The position numbers and the translations under genes were made by a program. From the NCBI RefSeq assembly GCF_900083515.1, contig NZ_LT671858.1, positions 120,001 through 152,000 of the forward strand: a DNA stretch of 32,000 bases, written 5' to 3'. Source of the stretch: Cuniculiplasma divulgatum (GTDB lineage: Archaea > Thermoplasmatota > Thermoplasmata > Thermoplasmatales > Thermoplasmataceae). Below are positions 14,822 to 20,813 of the stretch, in pieces. Positions within the stretch are counted from its first letter, which is position 1. The number at the start of each line of letters is the position of its first letter. Under the pieces are notes generated by a model. That model searched no databases. It was not told the origin of the DNA and saw only the letters and a list, made by a program, of their open reading frames with translations.

Positions 14822-15493
14822 ATGAAAAGGGAGGACTTCCTAGAAAAGATAAACTATTTTCAACTGGAAGTTTTTAGCATACACGATGCAGCTAGAATCT
14901 TCGGCAAAAGTGAAAGGTATGTATCTAACAGGCTTTCTACTATTAAACAAATCAAGAGAATAATGAAAGGAATGTATTACGTAGAGGGTACGTCAGTATC
15001 CACCATTGCCTCAAGCATCATTTCACCTTCATATGTGAGTCTTATTTCTGCCTTCTATATTAGGGGCTCCACCACACAAATTCCTATAGAAATTCAGGTC
15101 ATTTCCCCTATCCAGCACAGGTCTCTTCTAATAGATCAGACAAGAATCATTTTCATTAAGTTGAGTAGGGGAAGAATATTTGGCTTTGAACGGACAGATG
15201 TTGGCATGGTAGCCACTCTTGAAAAGGCTATTGTTGATTCACTTTATCTGAACACCTTTATAGGTGAAACAGAAGAGGCTCTGCAAAACAATAGTGGATT
15301 GAATATTAACAGACTACTAGAATATGGAAAGCTCATGCATTCAGGTGCAACTGTAAACAGGTTAGGACACGTATTGGAGAAATTTGGATATGATTGTGAA
15401 GCTTTACTTAAATACAGATCAGAAAGGTACGTTAATTTTGGAGAATCAGGTAACCTAAAAGATTCTAAGTGGAGGGTAAAGTATGCTGAGTAG
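14822..15493 (+). CDS. abiEi: AbiEi-family antitoxin / transcriptional regulator (type IV TA system)
   Basis: 223 aa with an N-terminal wHTH-like segment (FSIHDAARIFGKSERYVSNRLSTIKQIKRIMKGMYY). This is followed by PSYVSLISAFYIRGSTTQIPIEIQVIS, typical of AbiEi proteins. The gene overlaps the downstream AbiEii gene by 11 nt. Confidence 0.7.
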   Translation: MKREDFLEKINYFQLEVFSIHDAARIFGKSERYVSNRLSTIKQIKRIMKGMYYVEGTSVSTIASSIISPSYVSLISAFYIRGSTTQIPIEIQVISPIQHRSLLIDQTRIIFIKLSRGRIFGFERTDVGMVATLEKAIVDSLYLNTFIGETEEALQNNSGLNINRLLEYGKLMHSGATVNRLGHVLEKFGYDCEALLKYRSERYVNFGESGNLKDSKWRVKYAE

Positions 15494-16226
15494 AGAGGAA
15501 CTATTAAGTGTACCCTTATCATTCAACGCCTACCAGAAAGAAAAAGACTATCTTCAGCATATAATTTTATCAAGGATATATGCAAATACAGGAAACCAAT
15601 TGATTTTCAAGGGTGGTACATCTCTCCAGAAATGCTGTGGCCTAAACAGGTTCTCAGAAGATCTAGATTTTACAGTTAAAGACAAATTAAGATCCGAGAA
15701 GATAGAACTCGCCTTGGCAGAAGTTAACCGTTACTATCCATCATCTTATTCAGGTTATAAAGCAGATCATTCAATGGGGTACATAATAAAGATTCATGGA
15801 CCTTTATATAAATCCCCCATATCATTGCAGACAATACGATTAGACATTAGCATGCGTGAGAAGGTAATCCTTCCATCTGTAAACTACAACATCATTCCCA
15901 TATATAGAGATCTTATGCCTTACTTGGTCATTGCAATGGACCTGAAGGAAGTATTCTCTGAGAAGATAAGGGCACTTTTGACAAGAAAAAAAGCAAGGGA
16001 CCTTTATGATATATATTTTCTGATAAAAAGAAACATAGCGCTCGACCTTAACTTAGTAGAAGAGAAAATGAAATTTTATAACAAAGCATATGAAGGAAAA
16101 GAAGCAGTTGAGAGGATCAGAAGCCTCAAAACTCAATGGGAAAAAGAAATTCCGGCACTGGTGTTTAACCCACCTCTGTATGACACTGTCTCTTCAGAAG
16201 TAATTGAATTTCTGCTTTCCTCTTAG
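15483..16226 (+). CDS. abiEii: AbiEii/AbiGii-family nucleotidyltransferase toxin (DUF1814)
   Basis: 247 aa with the family signature LIFKGGTSLQKCCGLNRFSEDLDFT (NTase G-G-[ST] plus DxD) and the later motif KIRALLTRKKARDLYDIYFL. An SD sequence, GGAGGGT, lies 5 nt upstream of the ATG, inside the abiEi coding region. Confidence 0.85.
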   Translation: MLSREELLSVPLSFNAYQKEKDYLQHIILSRIYANTGNQLIFKGGTSLQKCCGLNRFSEDLDFTVKDKLRSEKIELALAEVNRYYPSSYSGYKADHSMGYIIKIHGPLYKSPISLQTIRLDISMREKVILPSVNYNIIPIYRDLMPYLVIAMDLKEVFSEKIRALLTRKKARDLYDIYFLIKRNIALDLNLVEEKMKFYNKAYEGKEAVERIRSLKTQWEKEIPALVFNPPLYDTVSSEVIEFLLSS

Positions 16227-17218: not shown

Positions 17219-18119
17219 TTATACGTAAGATAAAAGTAGGTCACGGTTTTCCATGAGCCATTTTCTCTTTTCTTTCCAGTTCGGCATAATTTTTTCCACC
17301 TCATTCCAGAACAACTTTCCATGGGCAGCAATTTTTGTATGAACAAGCTCATGGATGATCACGTAATCTATTACTCCAACAGGAGCCATTGCCAGTAGAA
17401 GCGTGAATCTTAATATGGTTTTGTTACTACAGCTCCCCCACGTTCTTGTTGCACTTCCTACAGAAAATGAGGAGTAATTACAGTTTATTCTGCTGGAAAA
17501 TGCATTTAATCTCTCATCAAAATAACTTTGTAATGCATTACGGTAGAAATGCTTGAAAACCTTTCTTCCTTTGTCCTTACAGTTCTCTGAAAGATTGAAA
17601 AAACCATCGAAGGATAAACATTTACTATCCTTTACTATCTTAATCTCATACTCTTTTCCAAATAGCAGATGTTTCTCCCCATCCTCAAATCTGACATTTT
17701 TCTTCATTTCTATCGCTTTGTCAAATTTTTCCTTTGTTTTTCTCATCCAACTGGCGTTTGTGTCCAGAAAAATATCAATCTGAGTGCCTGTTACCACCGT
17801 TTAAGCAGAAAGCCCACGACTTAAGTCGTGGGATGAATGCGAAACTCTTAATATGGTAGAAAGTGTATCTAATCCAGTACCGCAGGGCATGCGGGATTTG
17901 AAGCCTGATAAGCTGCCCGAAAGGGATAGTGAGAGATGGAGTAAGCCCTCTGGATCGGATGAAAGGGGCACTGTCAATGAAGCAGGAACCTCACAAGCTT
18001 TAGCTGTGGGAGGATGTCAGATGACTGGATACTCTGAGAGAAAAGGCGCCATCACTTTTTAATCTCAGAACCATGTATTTCCTTTTCCCTCTCACTTTTA
18101 TAATCTCAACATTGATCAT
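17219..18119 (-). pseudogene. DUF45 / YgjP-like (M48-related, HExxH) metallopeptidase gene interrupted by a 238-bp insertion
   Basis: The N-terminal module MINVEIIKVRGKRKYMVLRLKSDGAFSLRV runs from the ATG at 18119-18117 to codon GTA at 18032-18030 (part of ORF 18000..18197). The remainder, TGTQIDIFLDTNASWMRK...VIIHELVHTK...FW, is in ORF 17219..17797, in a different frame. Deleting 17795..18032 joins them in frame into a 220-aa protein of typical DUF45 size. Confidence 0.7.
17795..18032 (+). mobile_element. Non-autonomous IS200/IS605-like insertion (PATE/MITE-like), GC-rich and highly structured; may encode an omega/reRNA-like RNA
   Basis: About 50% GC against mid-30s % in the flanks. On the + strand it is inserted immediately 3' of TTAC (17791..17794). 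A perfect hairpin CCCACGAC-TTAA-GTCGTGGG (17813..17832) begins 18 nt inside the left end, with AAAG directly 5' of its foot. The element ends in ATAC. No target duplication is needed for in-frame restoration of the host gene. Further helices: a CCC-GAAA-GGG tetraloop hairpin at 17916..17925, a hairpin at 17880..17894, and a long-range 7-bp pairing of 17872..17878 with 18024..18030. No ORF of plausible function lies inside. Confidence 0.45.
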
Positions 18120-18207
18120 CTTATTTCCTGTATAGAGGATCGGATAATTACAGGGTAAATAGGGTTTTTCATTGCTGTTACCATAATCAACCTGCACTGG
18201 GTGAAAA

Positions 18208-18543
18208 CTACTTCTCTTTGAAAATTAGTTTCATCAATTCAGCATAGGTGGAATATGCCTCCTTTCCCTTATCAGTAATTGTTACTGAGATACTGGGGCC
18301 TTTCCTCTTAAGAACAGTCTTCACAGACACCAATCCACTCTCCTGAAGTTTATCCAGATGATTGCTCAGACTCCCCTTTCCACAGGATGTAACTGCCATT
18401 AGTTCCTTGAGATTCATCCTTCCGTTGATTGCCAGTGAGAGCAGTATTATCAGTCTTGCAGTGGACTTCATAACTGGTTCCTTCAAGTTATTTCCCAGTT
18501 TCTCAAGGAGCTGTGCAACTCTCTCATCACCCAATTCAATCAA
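18208..18543 (-). CDS. Winged-helix (ArsR/MarR-like) transcriptional regulator, last gene of the ABC operon
   Basis: 111 aa. STARLIILLSLAINGRMNLKELMAVTSCGKGSLSNHLDKLQESGLVSVK is a typical HTH plus wing. It overlaps the upstream gene by 8 nt. The start is a TTG, so the exact start is uncertain. Confidence 0.72.
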   Translation of the reverse strand: MIELGDERVAQLLEKLGNNLKEPVMKSTARLIILLSLAINGRMNLKELMAVTSCGKGSLSNHLDKLQESGLVSVKTVLKRKGPSISVTITDKGKEAYSTYAELMKLIFKEK

Positions 18544-19216
18544 CCCTTAGACTTTCATCCGCTCCATTCACCATTTTCCTGTAGTCTCTCAGGGAGATGT
18601 ATCCAGATAGGAACCACATGGCTGAAGAAACCAGCCATAGTAGTCCGTATACCAAATAGCCATAGTTAAGGAATAAGGATACTGTACTCGACACAGCACT
18701 GAAGAGAAAGGCCCCAGATGACAGATAACCCTCAAATGGAATCTTTCCCATGCTTTGTTTTATACCGCCCAGCATACCAATATAAATCAGTACTAAAACA
18801 AAGAACAGTCCAATCACTCCTTCTGGGTATTTTAGAATACCTGAGGCAAGGAAAAGAATTAGGATGAAGAGCAACACGTTGATGGATATGCTCCTAATTT
18901 CGTTTCTCCTGTTTTTTCCTTTAAAACCAGAGTTTATCTGTCCTATCATATAGGCTCTCCTGAATAAAGTCATCGTAACAAATATTGCAACTATGAAAAC
19001 GATTCCGTAGGCAGTGAAAAAAAGTATATCCTGATATACTGTGTTGGATATATTTTCCAGAGGAATATATATGGTTGAAAAAAGTGTAATCGCTGTTGCC
19101 CAGATCATATAGTAAAAACCCCACGTCTTCTTGAGTATCCTCCTGTCCAGCCTTACTGCATTCATGCTGGCAGTTTTTATCTGATCTATTGCCTGAGTTA
19201 ATTCATTTTCAGTCAC
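18536..19216 (-). CDS. Integral membrane protein (about six predicted TM helices), unknown family
   Basis: 226 aa with a hydrophobic periodicity. GTG start inside a GTGTGA overlap with the upstream permease stop, and a GGAG-type SD upstream. Confidence 0.65.
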   Translation of the reverse strand: MTENELTQAIDQIKTASMNAVRLDRRILKKTWGFYYMIWATAITLFSTIYIPLENISNTVYQDILFFTAYGIVFIVAIFVTMTLFRRAYMIGQINSGFKGKNRRNEIRSISINVLLFILILFLASGILKYPEGVIGLFFVLVLIYIGMLGGIKQSMGKIPFEGYLSSGAFLFSAVSSTVSLFLNYGYLVYGLLWLVSSAMWFLSGYISLRDYRKMVNGADESLRVD

Positions 19217-20019
19217 ACTCTCCTCGCCTCCTCAATAGATCTGTACTTTATCCTCTTCACGAGAATCATATCCAGTCCCAACAGGGCAAGTAACCATATA
19301 ACCATAGACCCCACCAAAAGATAACCGTTTACGTTTCCACCTGCTAATGTCACCATGTTAAGTGGAAGTTCTCTTCCATAGAATGCCTGTAGGAACAGTC
19401 TCAGAATAGCAGTAAATGGTGAACCATAGACAATATATGACGGAAGGCCAACATCGAGAGCGCTAAATCCGAACAAATAGGATAATAGCTGCGGCAACAG
19501 CATTACAAATGATATATTTTTCAGACCAATGTAGTTGTTTGCTGCGATTACGAAGAACACTGCGAGCAGTAACATAAATACTCCCGTTAAAACAAAAAGT
19601 CCTATGGTCTCCGGTACTTCCACAGGATAGATCAAATATCCGGCCCTTAGGCTGAAAACAATAATTATAAGTGCTGTAAGAACAGCTCCAATAATAAGAC
19701 TCACTATGGCAGAAGATACCACAAAATTGTAAAGGTAATTAAACGGTTTCAAAACTGTAAATTTGAAGGAATATATCAGTGAGGAATTTGCATAGTATAC
19801 TGAATAGGCTATGGAGGTAGAGAGTACCGATCCGGCTATAAGTCCTATAAACGCAAACCATCCTGAAGTGTATTCCAGGCTACTGTTGTGTGTAGAAAAG
19901 CTAGAGGTACCATCAAGCAGGTAAGCCCCCATTACTATCCAGAAGAACATGAAGCCTATGGACCATCCCAGAAGGGATTTATTTGTGAGAAGGCTTTTTA
20001 TGTCATATCTGACTATCAC
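19213..20019 (-). CDS. ABC-2-type transporter permease-like membrane protein
   Basis: 268 aa, six or seven hydrophobic helices. GTG start overlapping the ATPase stop (GTGA), with SD GAGGTG 6 nt upstream. Position immediately after an ABC ATPase supports the call. Confidence 0.62.
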   Translation of the reverse strand: MIVRYDIKSLLTNKSLLGWSIGFMFFWIVMGAYLLDGTSSFSTHNSSLEYTSGWFAFIGLIAGSVLSTSIAYSVYYANSSLIYSFKFTVLKPFNYLYNFVVSSAIVSLIIGAVLTALIIIVFSLRAGYLIYPVEVPETIGLFVLTGVFMLLLAVFFVIAANNYIGLKNISFVMLLPQLLSYLFGFSALDVGLPSYIVYGSPFTAILRLFLQAFYGRELPLNMVTLAGGNVNGYLLVGSMVIWLLALLGLDMILVKRIKYRSIEEARRV

Positions 20020-20813
20020 AGGGACACCTCATCAAAGAGAGAGTTAAGATTACTGACAGATGAAATTGGTACATCTCCACCATTAATTGTTATGGAAAAT
20101 TTTCCAATATCAGATTCGATCAATCCCAGGTTTCCAGGAACATCTCCTTTCGATACGTAAAGTTCTTTCAGCATACCCGTATTGAATTTACCATAAATCT
20201 GCCCATCAAGTATGAAGTAGAGGGACCAACCATCAAGATAATTCAGCAGGTTTAATTCATGAGTGTTCAGAAGGATATCAGATTTCACTTCCTTCAGTAG
20301 TCTTATCAATTTTATCCTTCTTGACTGGTCAACATTATCGAAGGGTTCGTCCAGTAGTATTATGGAAGGAGAAAAGCTCATGGCAAGGATATTTCCTATC
20401 ATCTTCTGTTCTCCAGAGCTAAGCTGGAAAAGTTTCTTCCTTAGAATGCTTCCTAGCTGAAAATGGTCAATCAGTTTTAACGCATTAGAAGGATCACTAT
20501 TTTTTAGCTCTGCAAAGATCCCAATTGTGTCAGAAACTGTTCCACCCATTAATTTGTAAACATCGGCAAGATTTGTTGAAAGACCAAGGTAGTCATGAAT
20601 TTCATTCGTATCCACACCATCAACCGTGACTTCTCCCTCTGTTTTTTCAAGAATACCAAGAATAAGTTTTATAACGCTTGTTTTTCCAGAACCATTAGGT
20701 CCAATCACTACAGCCTTTTCCTTTCCAATGGAGAAACTTATGTTCTTAAGTGCTAACCTCTTTTCAGCACCCTCATATGAGGCCGTTACATTATGGATTT
20801 CAATCATAAACAT
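20016..20813 (-). CDS. ABC transporter ATP-binding protein
   Basis: Walker A GPNGSGKTS, ABC signature LSSGEQKM, Walker B IILLDEPFDNVD, and an H-loop-like NTHE. Confidence 0.9.
   Translation of the reverse strand: MFMIEIHNVTASYEGAEKRLALKNISFSIGKEKAVVIGPNGSGKTSVIKLILGILEKTEGEVTVDGVDTNEIHDYLGLSTNLADVYKLMGGTVSDTIGIFAELKNSDPSNALKLIDHFQLGSILRKKLFQLSSGEQKMIGNILAMSFSPSIILLDEPFDNVDQSRRIKLIRLLKEVKSDILLNTHELNLLNYLDGWSLYFILDGQIYGKFNTGMLKELYVSKGDVPGNLGLIESDIGKFSITINGGDVPISSVSNLNSLFDEVSL

What the first reader, a model, noticed from the sequence alone, without database searches (positions are those of the whole stretch)
17791..18032. The insertion has IS200/IS605 (IS608-type) end architecture but carries no transposase or TnpB gene
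Read on the + strand, the insert begins immediately 3' of TTAC. A perfect 8-bp hairpin, CCCACGAC-TTAA-GTCGTGGG, starts 18 nt inside. The four bases directly 5' of the hairpin foot are AAAG. As I recall the IS608 paradigm, the left cleavage site is TTAC, it is recognised by the guide tetranucleotide AAAG at the foot of a subterminal hairpin about 19 nt inside the end, and insertion makes no target duplication. All of these features are seen here, and the absence of a duplication agrees with the in-frame restoration of the host gene. A second segment, TAAG-CCCTC...GGGG (17942..17968), begins with the same AAGCCC as the left hairpin foot and could be the right-end counterpart. At 238 bp the element cannot encode TnpA or TnpB, so it would need to be mobilised in trans.
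Basis: partly seen in the sequence, partly recalled or inferred. Interest (0 to 1): 0.78.

Follow-up and report, generated by a model that had tools for sequence, protein, structure and literature searches.

The report
Gene-less IS200/IS605 mini-transposon with guide-RNA module
A 226-bp gene-less derivative of an IS200/IS605 transposon, which keeps the two transposase-recognition ends and the guide-RNA (omega-RNA) region of a lost tnpB gene, has split a metallopeptidase gene in the acidophilic archaeon Cuniculiplasma divulgatum; this is a clear example of an already described kind of element, not a new one.

Summary
A 98-99% identical contig (L121) carries the intact gene. It fixes the insert at window 17795..18020: 226 bp (not 238), with no target duplication and no terminal inverted repeats.

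The ends match the IS608 design:
- Left end: TTAC|, then 14 nt, guide AAAG, then the hairpin CCCACGAC-TTAA-GTCGTGGG.
- Right end: guide GAAC, a bulged 8-bp hairpin (17990..18010), then AGGATGTCAG|.
- Both guide/cleavage pairs obey the published IS608 pairing rule.

Relatives share these ends. Sister G-plasma contigs carry a 1,291-bp tnpB-only IS 2.1 kb from the insert. Other archaeal tnpB elements and one tnpA+tnpB element have the same design.

The interior matches the region at and just after the 3' end of tnpB genes. It shares ordered blocks with that region and one stem-loop that covaries. It is therefore an omega-RNA scaffold whose guide would be the right flank.

Two diverged copies (~85%) lie at other loci.

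Meers et al. 2023 already describe elements of this type (PATEs) that carry omega-RNAs. Not shown here: a TnpA in this genome, transcription, or activity.

A side finding is unexplained. The left hairpin is identical to the tip of a REP-like repeat widespread in Ignavibacteria and Bacteroidota.

The parts
17791..17794 (+). TTAC: left cleavage/target site (CL) in host DNA. It would also be the TAM for a TnpB-omega-RNA complex.
   Evidence: It lies directly 5' of the insert in the filled allele and is retained in the empty allele L121. TTAC is also found 18-19 nt 5' of the AAAG-hairpin in L128, L135, L138 and L144.
17795..18020 (+). The whole 226-bp non-autonomous IS200/IS605 element (PATE/MITE). 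The + strand is the top (active) strand.
   Evidence: BLAST break points against the empty allele fall at 17794/18021. There are no ORFs for TnpA or TnpB.
17809..17812 (+). Left guide tetranucleotide GL = AAAG
   Evidence: It lies directly 5' of the hairpin foot. It is identical to IS608 GL. A1:T-3, A2:T-4 and G4:C-1 pair with TTAC.
17813..17832 (+). Left subterminal hairpin (IPL): CCCACGAC-TTAA-GTCGTGGG
   Evidence: It is a perfect 8-bp stem. Sister elements have different but still paired stems at the same place.
17833..17856 (+). Conserved left-end segment 3' of the hairpin: ATGAATGCGAAACTC plus the TATA-like TTAATAT (17848-17854). In full-length relatives this is the region upstream of the tnpB start codon.
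   Evidence: The same ATGAAT(T)GCGA...TTATT/TTAATAT segment follows the LE hairpin in L128, L138, L142 and L144. TAATATG is invariant in the 3 MITE copies. Its role as an archaeal promoter is an inference.
17876..17989 (+). Omega-RNA scaffold core derived from the tnpB 3' region. It comprises stem-loop S1 (17880-17894), the split GCCTG...GAGAG block, stem-loop S2 (17912-17930), GAGATGGAG (17933-17941) and TCAATGAAGCAGGAAC (17974-17989).
   Evidence: The blocks occur in the same order at or just after the 3' end of tnpB in L131, L152, L155, L164 and L229. S1 is 100% paired in 6 sequences, with 3 of 5 pairs compensatory. Long invariant runs occur among the 3 diverged MITE copies. The region aligns to the 3' ends of archaeal tnpB genes at z of about 5-9.
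17986..17989 (+). Right guide tetranucleotide GR = GAAC
   Evidence: It lies directly 5' of the right hairpin. It pairs with CR TCAG by the IS608 rule, whose counterpart is GAAT/TCAA.
17990..18010 (+). Right subterminal hairpin (IPR): CTCAC(A)AGC-TTTA-GCTGTGGG, with a bulged A
   Evidence: Compensatory changes occur between copies: L127 has CCCAC(A)CCC/GGGGTGGG and L146 has CCTCGCCC/GGGCGGGG.
18011..18020 (+). 10-nt right tail AGGATGTCAG ending in the right cleavage site CR = TCAG (18017-18020)
   Evidence: It is invariant in all MITE copies and nearly so in all archaeal tnpB relatives. IS608 has the same 10-nt distance.
18021..18040 (+). Host flank that would be read through as the omega-RNA guide (ATGACTGGATACTCTGAGAG)
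   Evidence: In the empty allele the first 24 nt of this flank follow TTAC directly and without change. The guide function is inferred from the known TnpB mechanism (PMC10055086).
18021..18197 (-). 5' part of the interrupted YgjP-like metallopeptidase gene
   Evidence: Joined to 17794..17219 it gives a 250-aa ORF equal to the intact L121 gene, which matches PF01863 at E 1e-50.
17219..17794 (-). 3' part of the interrupted YgjP-like gene (carries the HELVH motif)
17853..18062 (+). 69-aa ORF annotated as hypothetical protein CSP5_0144; most likely not a gene
   Evidence: It starts inside the element and runs 42 nt into host DNA. Its only homologues are the same ORF in the two other MITE copies, at 70-75% aa identity against about 85% nt identity.

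Best explanation
Window 17795..18020 is a 226-bp non-autonomous member of the IS200/IS605 family, of the kind called a PATE (palindrome-associated transposable element) or MITE. It has IS608-type ends and has inserted into a YgjP-like gene of Cuniculiplasma divulgatum.

Shown:
- It is a seamless insertion 3' of TTAC, with no duplication and no inverted repeats.
- It has a subterminal hairpin at each end on the same strand.
- A guide tetranucleotide lies 5' of each hairpin and pairs with the cleavage site (AAAG/TTAC at the left, GAAC/TCAG at the right).
- The same end design is found on tnpB-only and tnpA+tnpB elements of acidophilic archaea.
- The interior is homologous to the 3'-terminal region of tnpB elements, which encodes the omega-RNA scaffold.

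Inferred:
- A Y1 (HUH) TnpA supplied in trans binds the two hairpins on the single-stranded + strand. It cuts after TTAC and after TCAG and releases a single-stranded circle. It reseals the donor exactly, which would regenerate the intact gene seen in L121. The circle is then pasted 3' of another TTAC.
- Internal deletion of tnpB has brought the left-end promoter region (TATA-like TTAATAT) to about 25 nt upstream of the scaffold. A transcript of about 145 nt plus the flank could then serve as an omega-RNA.
- Loaded on a TnpB made by another element, that RNA would cut the empty site (TTAC followed by ATGACTGGATAC...). Recombination would then restore the element there.

My estimates: identity as an IS200/IS605 derivative about 0.9; interior is omega-RNA-derived about 0.85; omega-RNA still functional about 0.45.
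For: Exact boundaries and the absence of a duplication come from the empty allele L121. They match the published IS608 values and the pairing rule A+16:T-3, A+17:T-4. The 'AT' that forms base triplets 3' of the left hairpin in IS608 is also present here (17833-17834).

The G-plasma 1,291-bp tnpB IS (TnpB P0004, 389 aa, Pfam OrfB_IS605 and Cas12f1-like_TNB) matches 41/49 nt at the LE and 41/47 nt at the RE. It lies 2.1 kb from the MITE (its RE joins window 15924) in the same orientation. The RE is shared by tnpB elements L138-L144 directly after the stop codon, and the LE design is shared as well. The autonomous tnpA+tnpB element L146 has GGGAAC-hairpin-AGGAGGTCAG|.

Two further MITE copies of about 85% identity lie at unrelated loci. 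Both end in GGAGGATGTCAG and both show hairpin covariation.

Omega-RNA evidence: the 16-mer TCAATGAAGCAGGAAC lies 2-70 nt downstream of a tnpB gene on the same strand in 7 viral contigs. The block order is shared. S1 covaries, with 0/500 shuffles reaching the observed score. TnpB tails such as ...SLKQEPPILQGGEDV match the element's frame +2, SMKQEPHKL*LWEDV.

Meers et al. state that PATEs often encode omega-RNAs that TnpB acts on in trans.
Against: No TnpA was found for C. divulgatum itself. The supplement of PMC5155288 lists only one IS200/IS605 OrfB (CSP5_1822) in strain S5. My TnpA search listed only 120 of 469 hits, and none came from this genome.

The nearest tnpB IS has a clearly different internal sequence; only the ends match by blastn and nhmmer. 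The cognate TnpB of this scaffold is therefore unidentified.

Only one copy is visible in this genome, and the family is low-copy. No second copy lies in the window. Only two other ORF-bearing copies exist in a 5.8-billion-protein collection.

No Rfam family matches. The fold z-score is modest, at -1.6. With three copies, most scaffold stems are invariant or only weakly supported. I set the S1 register by hand.

Transcription and promoter use are not shown.
Confidence: 0.8

Rival explanations
1. The element has the same origin but is now an inert fossil. It is an old internal-deletion remnant that is no longer mobilised, because the genome has no TnpA. Its omega-RNA remnant is neither transcribed nor used. 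The only consequence is a dead YgjP-like gene.
For: No TnpA was found for this species. The insertion is shared by strains from different sites: S5, Iron Mountain G-plasma and several ENA/Logan samples. Only one copy per genome is visible. The coding frame of the former tnpB tail is broken by stops and frameshifts.
Against: An empty allele exists at 98-99% identity, so gain or precise loss happened recently on the species time scale. In three copies that differ by about 15% overall, long runs of the scaffold and both guide/cleavage sets are invariant. These include 17876-17911 with a single substitution at 17905, and 17967-17991 with a single substitution at 17972. Hairpin changes are compensatory, which argues for continued constraint.
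Confidence: 0.3
2. It is a self-splicing or enzymatically spliced intron (group I, group II, an archaeal bulge-helix-bulge intron, or an IStron) that is removed from the YgjP-like mRNA, so the host gene still works.
For: Read on the gene's sense strand, the upstream exon ends in U and the insert ends in G, as in group I introns. Removing the insert restores the frame.
Against: No intron or ribozyme family reaches even E=10, apart from a meaningless Hammerhead_HH9 hit at E 9.6. The conserved, purine-rich, tnpB-derived strand is antisense to the host gene. The ends are those of tnpB and tnpA transposons. The other copies are intergenic.
Confidence: 0.02
3. It is a REP/BIME-type repeat serviced by a RAYT (a domesticated Y1 transposase), because its left hairpin is identical to a REP-like repeat of Ignavibacteria and Bacteroidota.
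For: The 22-mer identity extends to more than 120 bacterial loci. Three of them have a RAYT-like Y1_Tnp gene 150-190 nt away.
Against: Only the hairpin (22-35 nt) is shared. The window has one such hairpin and no RAYT. The element has distinct left and right ends, a tnpB-derived interior and tnpB-bearing relatives. Sister elements carry other stems.
Confidence: 0.03
4. It is a small mobile protein-coding cassette whose product is the annotated 69-aa protein CSP5_0144.
For: The ORF is open in all three copies and was called as a gene by several pipelines.
Against: The ORF runs out of the element into host DNA, so its C-terminus differs at every site. Amino-acid identity (70-75%) is lower than nucleotide identity (about 85%). 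It has no other homologues and no Pfam domain.
Confidence: 0.02

Closest known systems
IS608 of Helicobacter pylori (IS200/IS605 family; the reference for single-strand 'peel and paste' transposition)
   Same: Insertion 3' of TTAC without duplication. Left guide AAAG directly 5' of a subterminal hairpin lying 18-19 nt inside the end. 'AT' 3' of that hairpin. The right cleavage site 10 nt 3' of a bulged right hairpin. The same guide/cleavage pairing rule.
   Different: It has no tnpA and no tnpB. It is 226 bp against about 1.8 kb (my recollection). The right pair is GAAC/TCAG instead of GAAT/TCAA. The host is an archaeon. The stem sequences differ.
PATEs (palindrome-associated transposable elements): first named in Haloquadratum walsbyi (PMC3119063) and also found in Geobacillus stearothermophilus (Meers et al. 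2023, PMC10055086)
   Same: Short elements with no genes that carry IS200/IS605-type left and right ends. They depend on a transposase in trans. According to Meers et al. they often encode an omega-RNA that needs TnpB in trans.
   Different: This is a different lineage (Thermoplasmatales) and a different sequence. Here an empty allele fixes the ends to the base, and the left-end promoter region appears to be fused to the scaffold. I did not compare it with the published PATE sequences.
tnpB-only IS1341-type element of 'G-plasma' (TnpB P0004, annotated IS605 OrfB family, Thermoplasmatales archaeon Gpl)
   Same: Same species group, same genomic neighbourhood and same orientation. TTAC target. 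84% identical LE (41/49) and 87% identical RE (41/47).
   Different: It is 1,291 bp and has an intact 389-aa tnpB. Its internal omega-RNA region is too diverged to be the direct parent.
TnpB omega-RNA (reRNA) of IS200/IS605 elements such as ISDra2
   Same: Position at the 3' end of the element, running to the RE boundary. Overlap with the tnpB 3' coding region. The guide would come from the flank, next to a TAM equal to the transposon target.
   Different: There is no adjacent tnpB. Two extra hairpins are present relative to the phage-borne examples. There is no experimental RNA and no Rfam model to test against.
REP elements and RAYT (REP-associated Y1 transposases)
   Same: A hairpin substrate of a Y1 HUH enzyme. 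The 22 nt are identical to a bacterial REP-like repeat.
   Different: See the third rival explanation (REP/BIME-type repeat): only the hairpin is shared, and the window element has transposon ends and a tnpB-derived interior.

Membership tests
IS200/IS605 (IS608-type ends) | Seamless insertion 3' of a fixed tetranucleotide, with no target-site duplication | tested here: met
   Empty allele L121 against the filled window...GTTAC|ATGACT... against ...GTTAC|CACCG...GTCAG|ATGACT...
IS200/IS605 (IS608-type ends) | No terminal inverted repeats; instead a subterminal hairpin at each end on the same strand | tested here: met
   The ends CACCGTTTAAGC... and ...GGAGGATGTCAG are not complementary. The hairpins lie at 17813-17832 and 17990-18010, and the stems covary between copies.
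IS200/IS605 (IS608-type ends) | Left cleavage site about 19 nt 5' of the left hairpin foot; right cleavage site 10 nt 3' of the right hairpin foot | tested here: met
   18 nt and 10 nt here. 18-19 nt in L128, L135, L138 and L144.
IS200/IS605 (IS608-type ends) | A guide tetranucleotide 5' of each hairpin pairs with the cleavage site (G1:C2, G2:C1, G4:C4) | tested here: met
   AAAG/TTAC and GAAC/TCAG satisfy all three pairs. IS608 has AAAG/TTAC and GAAT/TCAA. L152 has GAAT...TCAA. L127 and L146 have CAAG with TGAC, but those boundaries are not fixed by an empty site.
IS200/IS605 (IS608-type ends) | Encodes a Y1 (HUH) transposase TnpA, as an autonomous member does | tested here: not met
   There is no such ORF in 226 bp. 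The element can therefore only be a non-autonomous derivative. A relative with the same RE design, L146, carries tnpA (PF01797) and tnpB.
IS200/IS605 (IS608-type ends) | Excision and integration catalysed on single-stranded DNA by TnpA | not testable with these tools
   This needs biochemistry or genetics.
PATE / IS200/IS605-derived MITE | Short, without protein genes, bounded by the LE and RE of a family whose full-length members exist | tested here: met
PATE / IS200/IS605-derived MITE | Repeated: several copies at different sites | tested here: inconclusive
   Three diverged copies lie at three unrelated loci in related metagenomes. Only one is visible in this genome, and I could not scan the whole genome.
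TnpB omega-RNA | Encoded at the 3' end of the element, overlapping or following the tnpB 3' end and running to the RE boundary | tested here: met
   The interior aligns with tnpB 3' regions at z of about 5-9. The 16-mer is linked to tnpB ends in 7 contigs. The block order is shared.
TnpB omega-RNA | Conserved secondary structure supported by covariation | tested here: inconclusive
   S1 is strongly supported (the register was set by hand). S2 and the RE hairpin each have compensatory pairs, while the other stems are invariant or weak with 3 sequences. There is no Rfam model.
TnpB omega-RNA | Transcribed, bound by TnpB, and guides cleavage next to the TAM | not testable with these tools
   The empty allele does carry TTAC followed by 24 nt identical to the flank. 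That is necessary but not sufficient.
REP / RAYT system | Many copies per genome of the hairpin alone, with a RAYT gene flanked by them | tested here: not met
   The window has one hairpin and no Y1 gene. Only the hairpin is shared with the bacterial repeat.
Group I / group II intron or IStron | A ribozyme core on the sense strand of the interrupted gene | tested here: not met
   No intron family reaches E<=10. The conserved strand is antisense to the gene.

The most novel reading that the evidence does not exclude
The element is a guide-RNA-only selfish element in an archaeon. Deletion of tnpB fused the left-end promoter directly to the omega-RNA scaffold. The 226-bp element makes only a guide that points at its own empty site. 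It borrows both enzymes, TnpA for movement and TnpB for homing, from other IS200/IS605 lineages. The empty/filled polymorphism within a 98-99% identical population would then reflect ongoing excision and RNA-guided re-insertion. A weaker corollary concerns the exact identity of its left hairpin with a REP-like repeat spread across bacterial phyla. That identity would reflect a hairpin recognition code shared by Y1 HUH enzymes across domains.
Probability: 0.3. Interest if true: 0.5.

Novelty: new member of a known kind. Interest (0 to 1): 0.3.

Why it matters
It is a well-defined natural example of a known element type. It offers base-exact ends from an empty allele, both guide/cleavage pairs readable, tnpB-only and tnpA+tnpB relatives, and a retained omega-RNA module.

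It shows that the IS608 end code, including the covarying fourth guide position, holds in acidophilic archaea. It also gives a concrete, testable archaeal case for the idea that gene-less PATEs persist by borrowing TnpB.

On the practical side, it corrects two annotations. CSP5_0144 is most likely not a gene, and the flanking YgjP-like ORFs are two halves of one disrupted gene.

It does not change current understanding of the family.

Tried and rejected
- Rfam at gathering threshold on the whole window, and at E<=10 on 17600-18250, gave nothing usable. The only notable hit was a sub-threshold Acido-Lenti-1 match to the hairpin alone.
- tRNA/tmRNA scan: none found.
- blastn against the phage collection: no match.
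- Repeat search for a second copy in the window: none found.
- I spent the single genome-contig scan on the left hairpin.
- The single metagenome scan, with a 22-mer of the core, returned only the same locus plus one chance match, L134.
- A protein search with the frame +1 translation, aimed at finding a cognate TnpB tail, found only the ORF of the three MITE copies.
- The 136-aa and 134-aa ORFs upstream of tnpB in L138 and L144 are not TnpA.
- I considered a TA or CTGAG duplication, and terminal inverted repeats. The empty allele rejects both.
- An apparent alignment of the left-end segment with the NAAINI codons of tnpB is better explained as the family's own LE/promoter segment, so I do not count it as a deletion junction.
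- Literature searches for the 13-mer and for the hairpin sequence found nothing relevant.
- Rfam on 16 of the bacterial hairpin loci found only rRNA.
Full report
**What is in the sequence.** The window comes from the acidophilic archaeon Cuniculiplasma divulgatum (Thermoplasmatales). The small ORF at 17853..18062 is identical to NCBI protein CSP5_0144 of that species.

On the minus strand, a YgjP-like metallopeptidase gene (Pfam PF01863) is split into two ORFs. TTAC lies at 17791-17794. A perfect hairpin CCCACGAC-TTAA-GTCGTGGG lies at 17813-17832, 18 nt inside the insert. AAAG lies directly 5' of the hairpin foot.

This is not a chance hairpin. It is the only perfect 8-bp hairpin in the window with at least 6 G/C per arm. 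Only 0.02 such hairpins are expected in Markov resamples.

**Exact boundaries.** Looking up the neighbouring aldo-keto reductase returned several contigs of the same locus. Four carry the insert (L122, L123, L125, L126). One, L121, has an uninterrupted 250-aa YgjP-like gene.

L121 is 98.9% and 98.0% identical to the window on the two sides of the insert. The BLAST break points fall exactly at 17794 and 18021. The insert is therefore 17795..18020, 226 bp. The junctions read ...GTTAC|CACCG......GTCAG|ATGACT....

No base is duplicated and the termini are not inverted repeats. The frame argument still holds, since 226 mod 3 = 1. Joining 18197..18021 to 17794..17219 gives the same 250-aa protein as L121.

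**The ends follow the IS608 code.** The published facts for IS608 are as follows (PMC3201880; PMC5934647):
- The left cleavage site TTAC lies 19 nt 5' of the left hairpin foot.
- The left guide is AAAG.
- The right guide is GAAT.
- A+16 pairs with T-3 and A+17 pairs with T-4, and an A and a T directly 3' of the left hairpin form base triplets.

The window gives these values:
- Left end: TTAC, then 14 nt, AAAG, the hairpin, then AT.
- Right end: GAAC (17986-17989), a hairpin CTCAC(A)AGC-TTTA-GCTGTGGG with one bulged A (17990-18010), then the 10-nt tail AGGATGTCAG, which ends the element.

With the rule G1:C2, G2:C1, G4:C4, both pairs fit. Relative to IS608, the fourth right-end pair has changed on both sides (T:A to C:G).

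**Relatives with genes share these ends.** The one metagenome scan re-found the locus in an acid-mine-drainage contig of 'G-plasma' (L133). That contig, and L135-L137, carry a 1,291-bp insertion in the neighbouring AbiEii gene. Its right end joins the host 2.1 kb from the MITE, and it has the same orientation.

The insertion encodes a 389-aa TnpB (P0004, annotated 'IS605 OrfB family', with Pfam OrfB_IS605 and Cas12f1-like_TNB). It starts TTTTAC|GATTATTTAAGCAGAAAG-CCCATGTC-TTAA-GTCATGGG and ends GGAAC-ACCACATGC-TTTA-GCTGTGGG-ATGATGTCAG|. Its first 49 nt match the MITE at 41 positions. Its last 47 nt also match at 41 positions. The interior is not detectably similar by blastn or nhmmer.

Other archaeal tnpB elements (L138-L144; 62-78% TnpB identity) show the same two features. 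The RE follows directly after the stop codon. The LE has the design TTAC, 15 nt, AAAG, a hairpin with a different stem, then ATGAATTGCGA and a TATA-like box.

A search with a Sulfolobus-type Y1 transposase fragment led to L146. This element carries tnpA (PF01797) followed by tnpB, and it ends GGGAAC-CCTCGCCC-TTTA-GGGCGGGG-AGGAGGTCAG|.

**Other copies.** A protein search with the spurious ORF found two further versions (P0002, P0003). Their contigs (L127; L128-L130) hold copies about 85% identical at the nucleotide level, at unrelated loci. One lies downstream of a vapBC pair. All end in GGAGGATGTCAG.

L128 sits 3' of TTAC with guide AAAG. L127 appears to sit 3' of TGAC with guide CAAG, which would be a compensatory pair, but its left boundary is not fixed by an empty site. 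The RE stems covary (AGC/GCT against CCC/GGG) and keep the bulged A.

The ORF is 70-75% identical at the protein level against about 85% at the nucleotide level, and it runs out of the element into host DNA. I therefore do not regard it as a gene.

**The interior is an omega-RNA scaffold.** Five lines of evidence support this.
1. The + strand is purine-rich, unlike its surroundings.
2. The interior aligns with the last roughly 150 nt of the archaeal tnpB elements. Scores were 77-104 against 41-45 ± 7 for shuffles. Its frame +2 reads SMKQEPHKL*LWEDV, which matches TnpB tails such as SLKQEPPILQGGEDV.
3. The 16-mer TCAATGAAGCAGGAAC (17974-17989) occurs in 93 viral contigs. In 7 of them it lies 2-70 nt downstream of a tnpB gene on the same strand.
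4. Those tnpB-linked sequences share the same order of elements with the MITE. The order is a 5-bp/5-nt stem-loop (S1), the block GCCTGTGGAG(AG), a variable hairpin, then the 16-mer. In the MITE the GCCTG...GAGAG block is split by an extra hairpin.
5. S1 is paired in all six sequences, with compensatory changes at 3 of 5 pairs. No shuffle out of 500 reached the observed covariation. I set the register by hand, so this leans towards the structure.

Among the three MITE copies, the scaffold shows long invariant runs while the LE linker and the variable stems differ. Rfam has no matching family. With three copies the remaining stems are weakly supported.

**How it most likely works.**

Shown: an IS200/IS605-type, gene-less element whose ends carry everything a Y1 transposase needs.

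Inferred from the established IS608 mechanism:
- A TnpA supplied in trans binds both hairpins on the single-stranded + strand.
- It cuts after TTAC and after TCAG and releases a circle.
- It reseals the donor exactly, which is the state seen in L121.
- The circle then integrates 3' of another TTAC.

Inferred from the TnpB literature:
- A transcript that reads through the RE would carry the flank ATGACTGGATAC... as its guide.
- The empty allele carries TTAC followed by 24 identical nucleotides. A TnpB loaded with this RNA would therefore cut the empty site and favour re-copying of the element.

Speculative: the conserved LE segment with the invariant TAATATG lies about 26 nt upstream of the first invariant scaffold base (A at 17876). 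This is the spacing expected for an archaeal TATA box. Deletion of tnpB may thus have fused the tnpB promoter to the guide RNA.

**What is missing.** I found no TnpA in C. divulgatum itself. The species paper lists IS200/605 among its IS families, and its supplement lists one 'IS200/IS605 family transposase OrfB' (CSP5_1822) in strain S5. My TnpA search showed Thermoplasmata hits but none from this genome, and only 120 of 469 hits were listed. The cognate TnpB of this scaffold is unknown. Transcription is untested.

**Comparison with what is known, and novelty.** Short gene-less elements with IS200/IS605 ends are known as PATEs. [quoted passage not shown]

This element is therefore a new member of a known kind. 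It meets the tested end-architecture criteria of the IS608 group. By definition it fails the 'encodes TnpA' criterion, so it should be filed as a non-autonomous derivative.

I rejected the following alternatives:
- Intron readings: no ribozyme match, and the conserved strand is antisense to the gene.
- A REP/RAYT reading: only the hairpin is shared.
- A coding reading.

**Verdict.** Interest is modest. This is a precisely bounded archaeal example, not a surprise.

Noticed in passing
In those genomes it forms a composite unit: a small hairpin of the CCGTTnnnAACGG type, 24-30 nt, the core hairpin, 24-30 nt, then another small hairpin. Both small hairpins are present in 45 of 117 cases. There is no Rfam family and no tnpB nearby. 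RAYT-like Y1_Tnp genes lie 150-190 nt away in L045, L095 and L008. It is probably a REP-like family. Why an archaeal IS end has exactly the same hairpin is unexplained.
   Followed up: partly
window 15670-15927 (AbiEii gene 15483..16226 +); L133 2092-3382, L135 2420-3710: In G-plasma contigs a 1,291-bp tnpB-only IS sits 3' of the TTAC at window 15670-15673. The 250 bp up to and including the next TTAC (15674-15923) are missing, so the IS is flanked by sequence from two different TTAC sites. This looks like a deletion between two neighbouring insertion sites, or recombination between two copies. In the window strain the AbiEii gene is intact.
   Followed up: partly
window 17853-18062 (+): The annotated hypothetical protein CSP5_0144 (69 aa) starts inside the element and ends in host DNA. 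It is most likely an annotation artefact.
   Followed up: yes
L146 2900-4760: L146 is an autonomous-looking tnpA+tnpB element. Its TnpA (136 aa) is 92% identical to a fragment of the Sulfolobus solfataricus transposase of PDB 2f4f; its TnpB is 436 aa. It lies in a GC-rich archaeal contig and has the same RE design (GAAC-hairpin-AGGAGGTCAG). Its left guide is CAAG, next to a TGAC.
   Followed up: partly
L152 (viral contig IMGVR_UViG_3300031718_000040), about 110 nt downstream of the 16-mer: A phage-borne tnpB element ends GGAAT-CCCCCGAC-TTTA-GGCGGGGG-AGGATGTCAA. This is almost the same right tail as the archaeal MITE, but with the IS608-type GAAT/TCAA pair.
   Followed up: no
window 14822-16226 and 18208-20813: The insertion lies between an AbiEi/AbiEii-like toxin-antitoxin pair and an ArsR-type regulator with an ABC transporter operon. 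The related copy in L128 lies next to vapBC. These are accessory-gene neighbourhoods.
   Followed up: no
L134 1344-1365: The 22-mer GCAGGGCATGCGGGATTTGAAG also occurs once in an unrelated GC-rich metagenome contig, inside what looks like a transporter gene. It is a chance match.
   Followed up: yes
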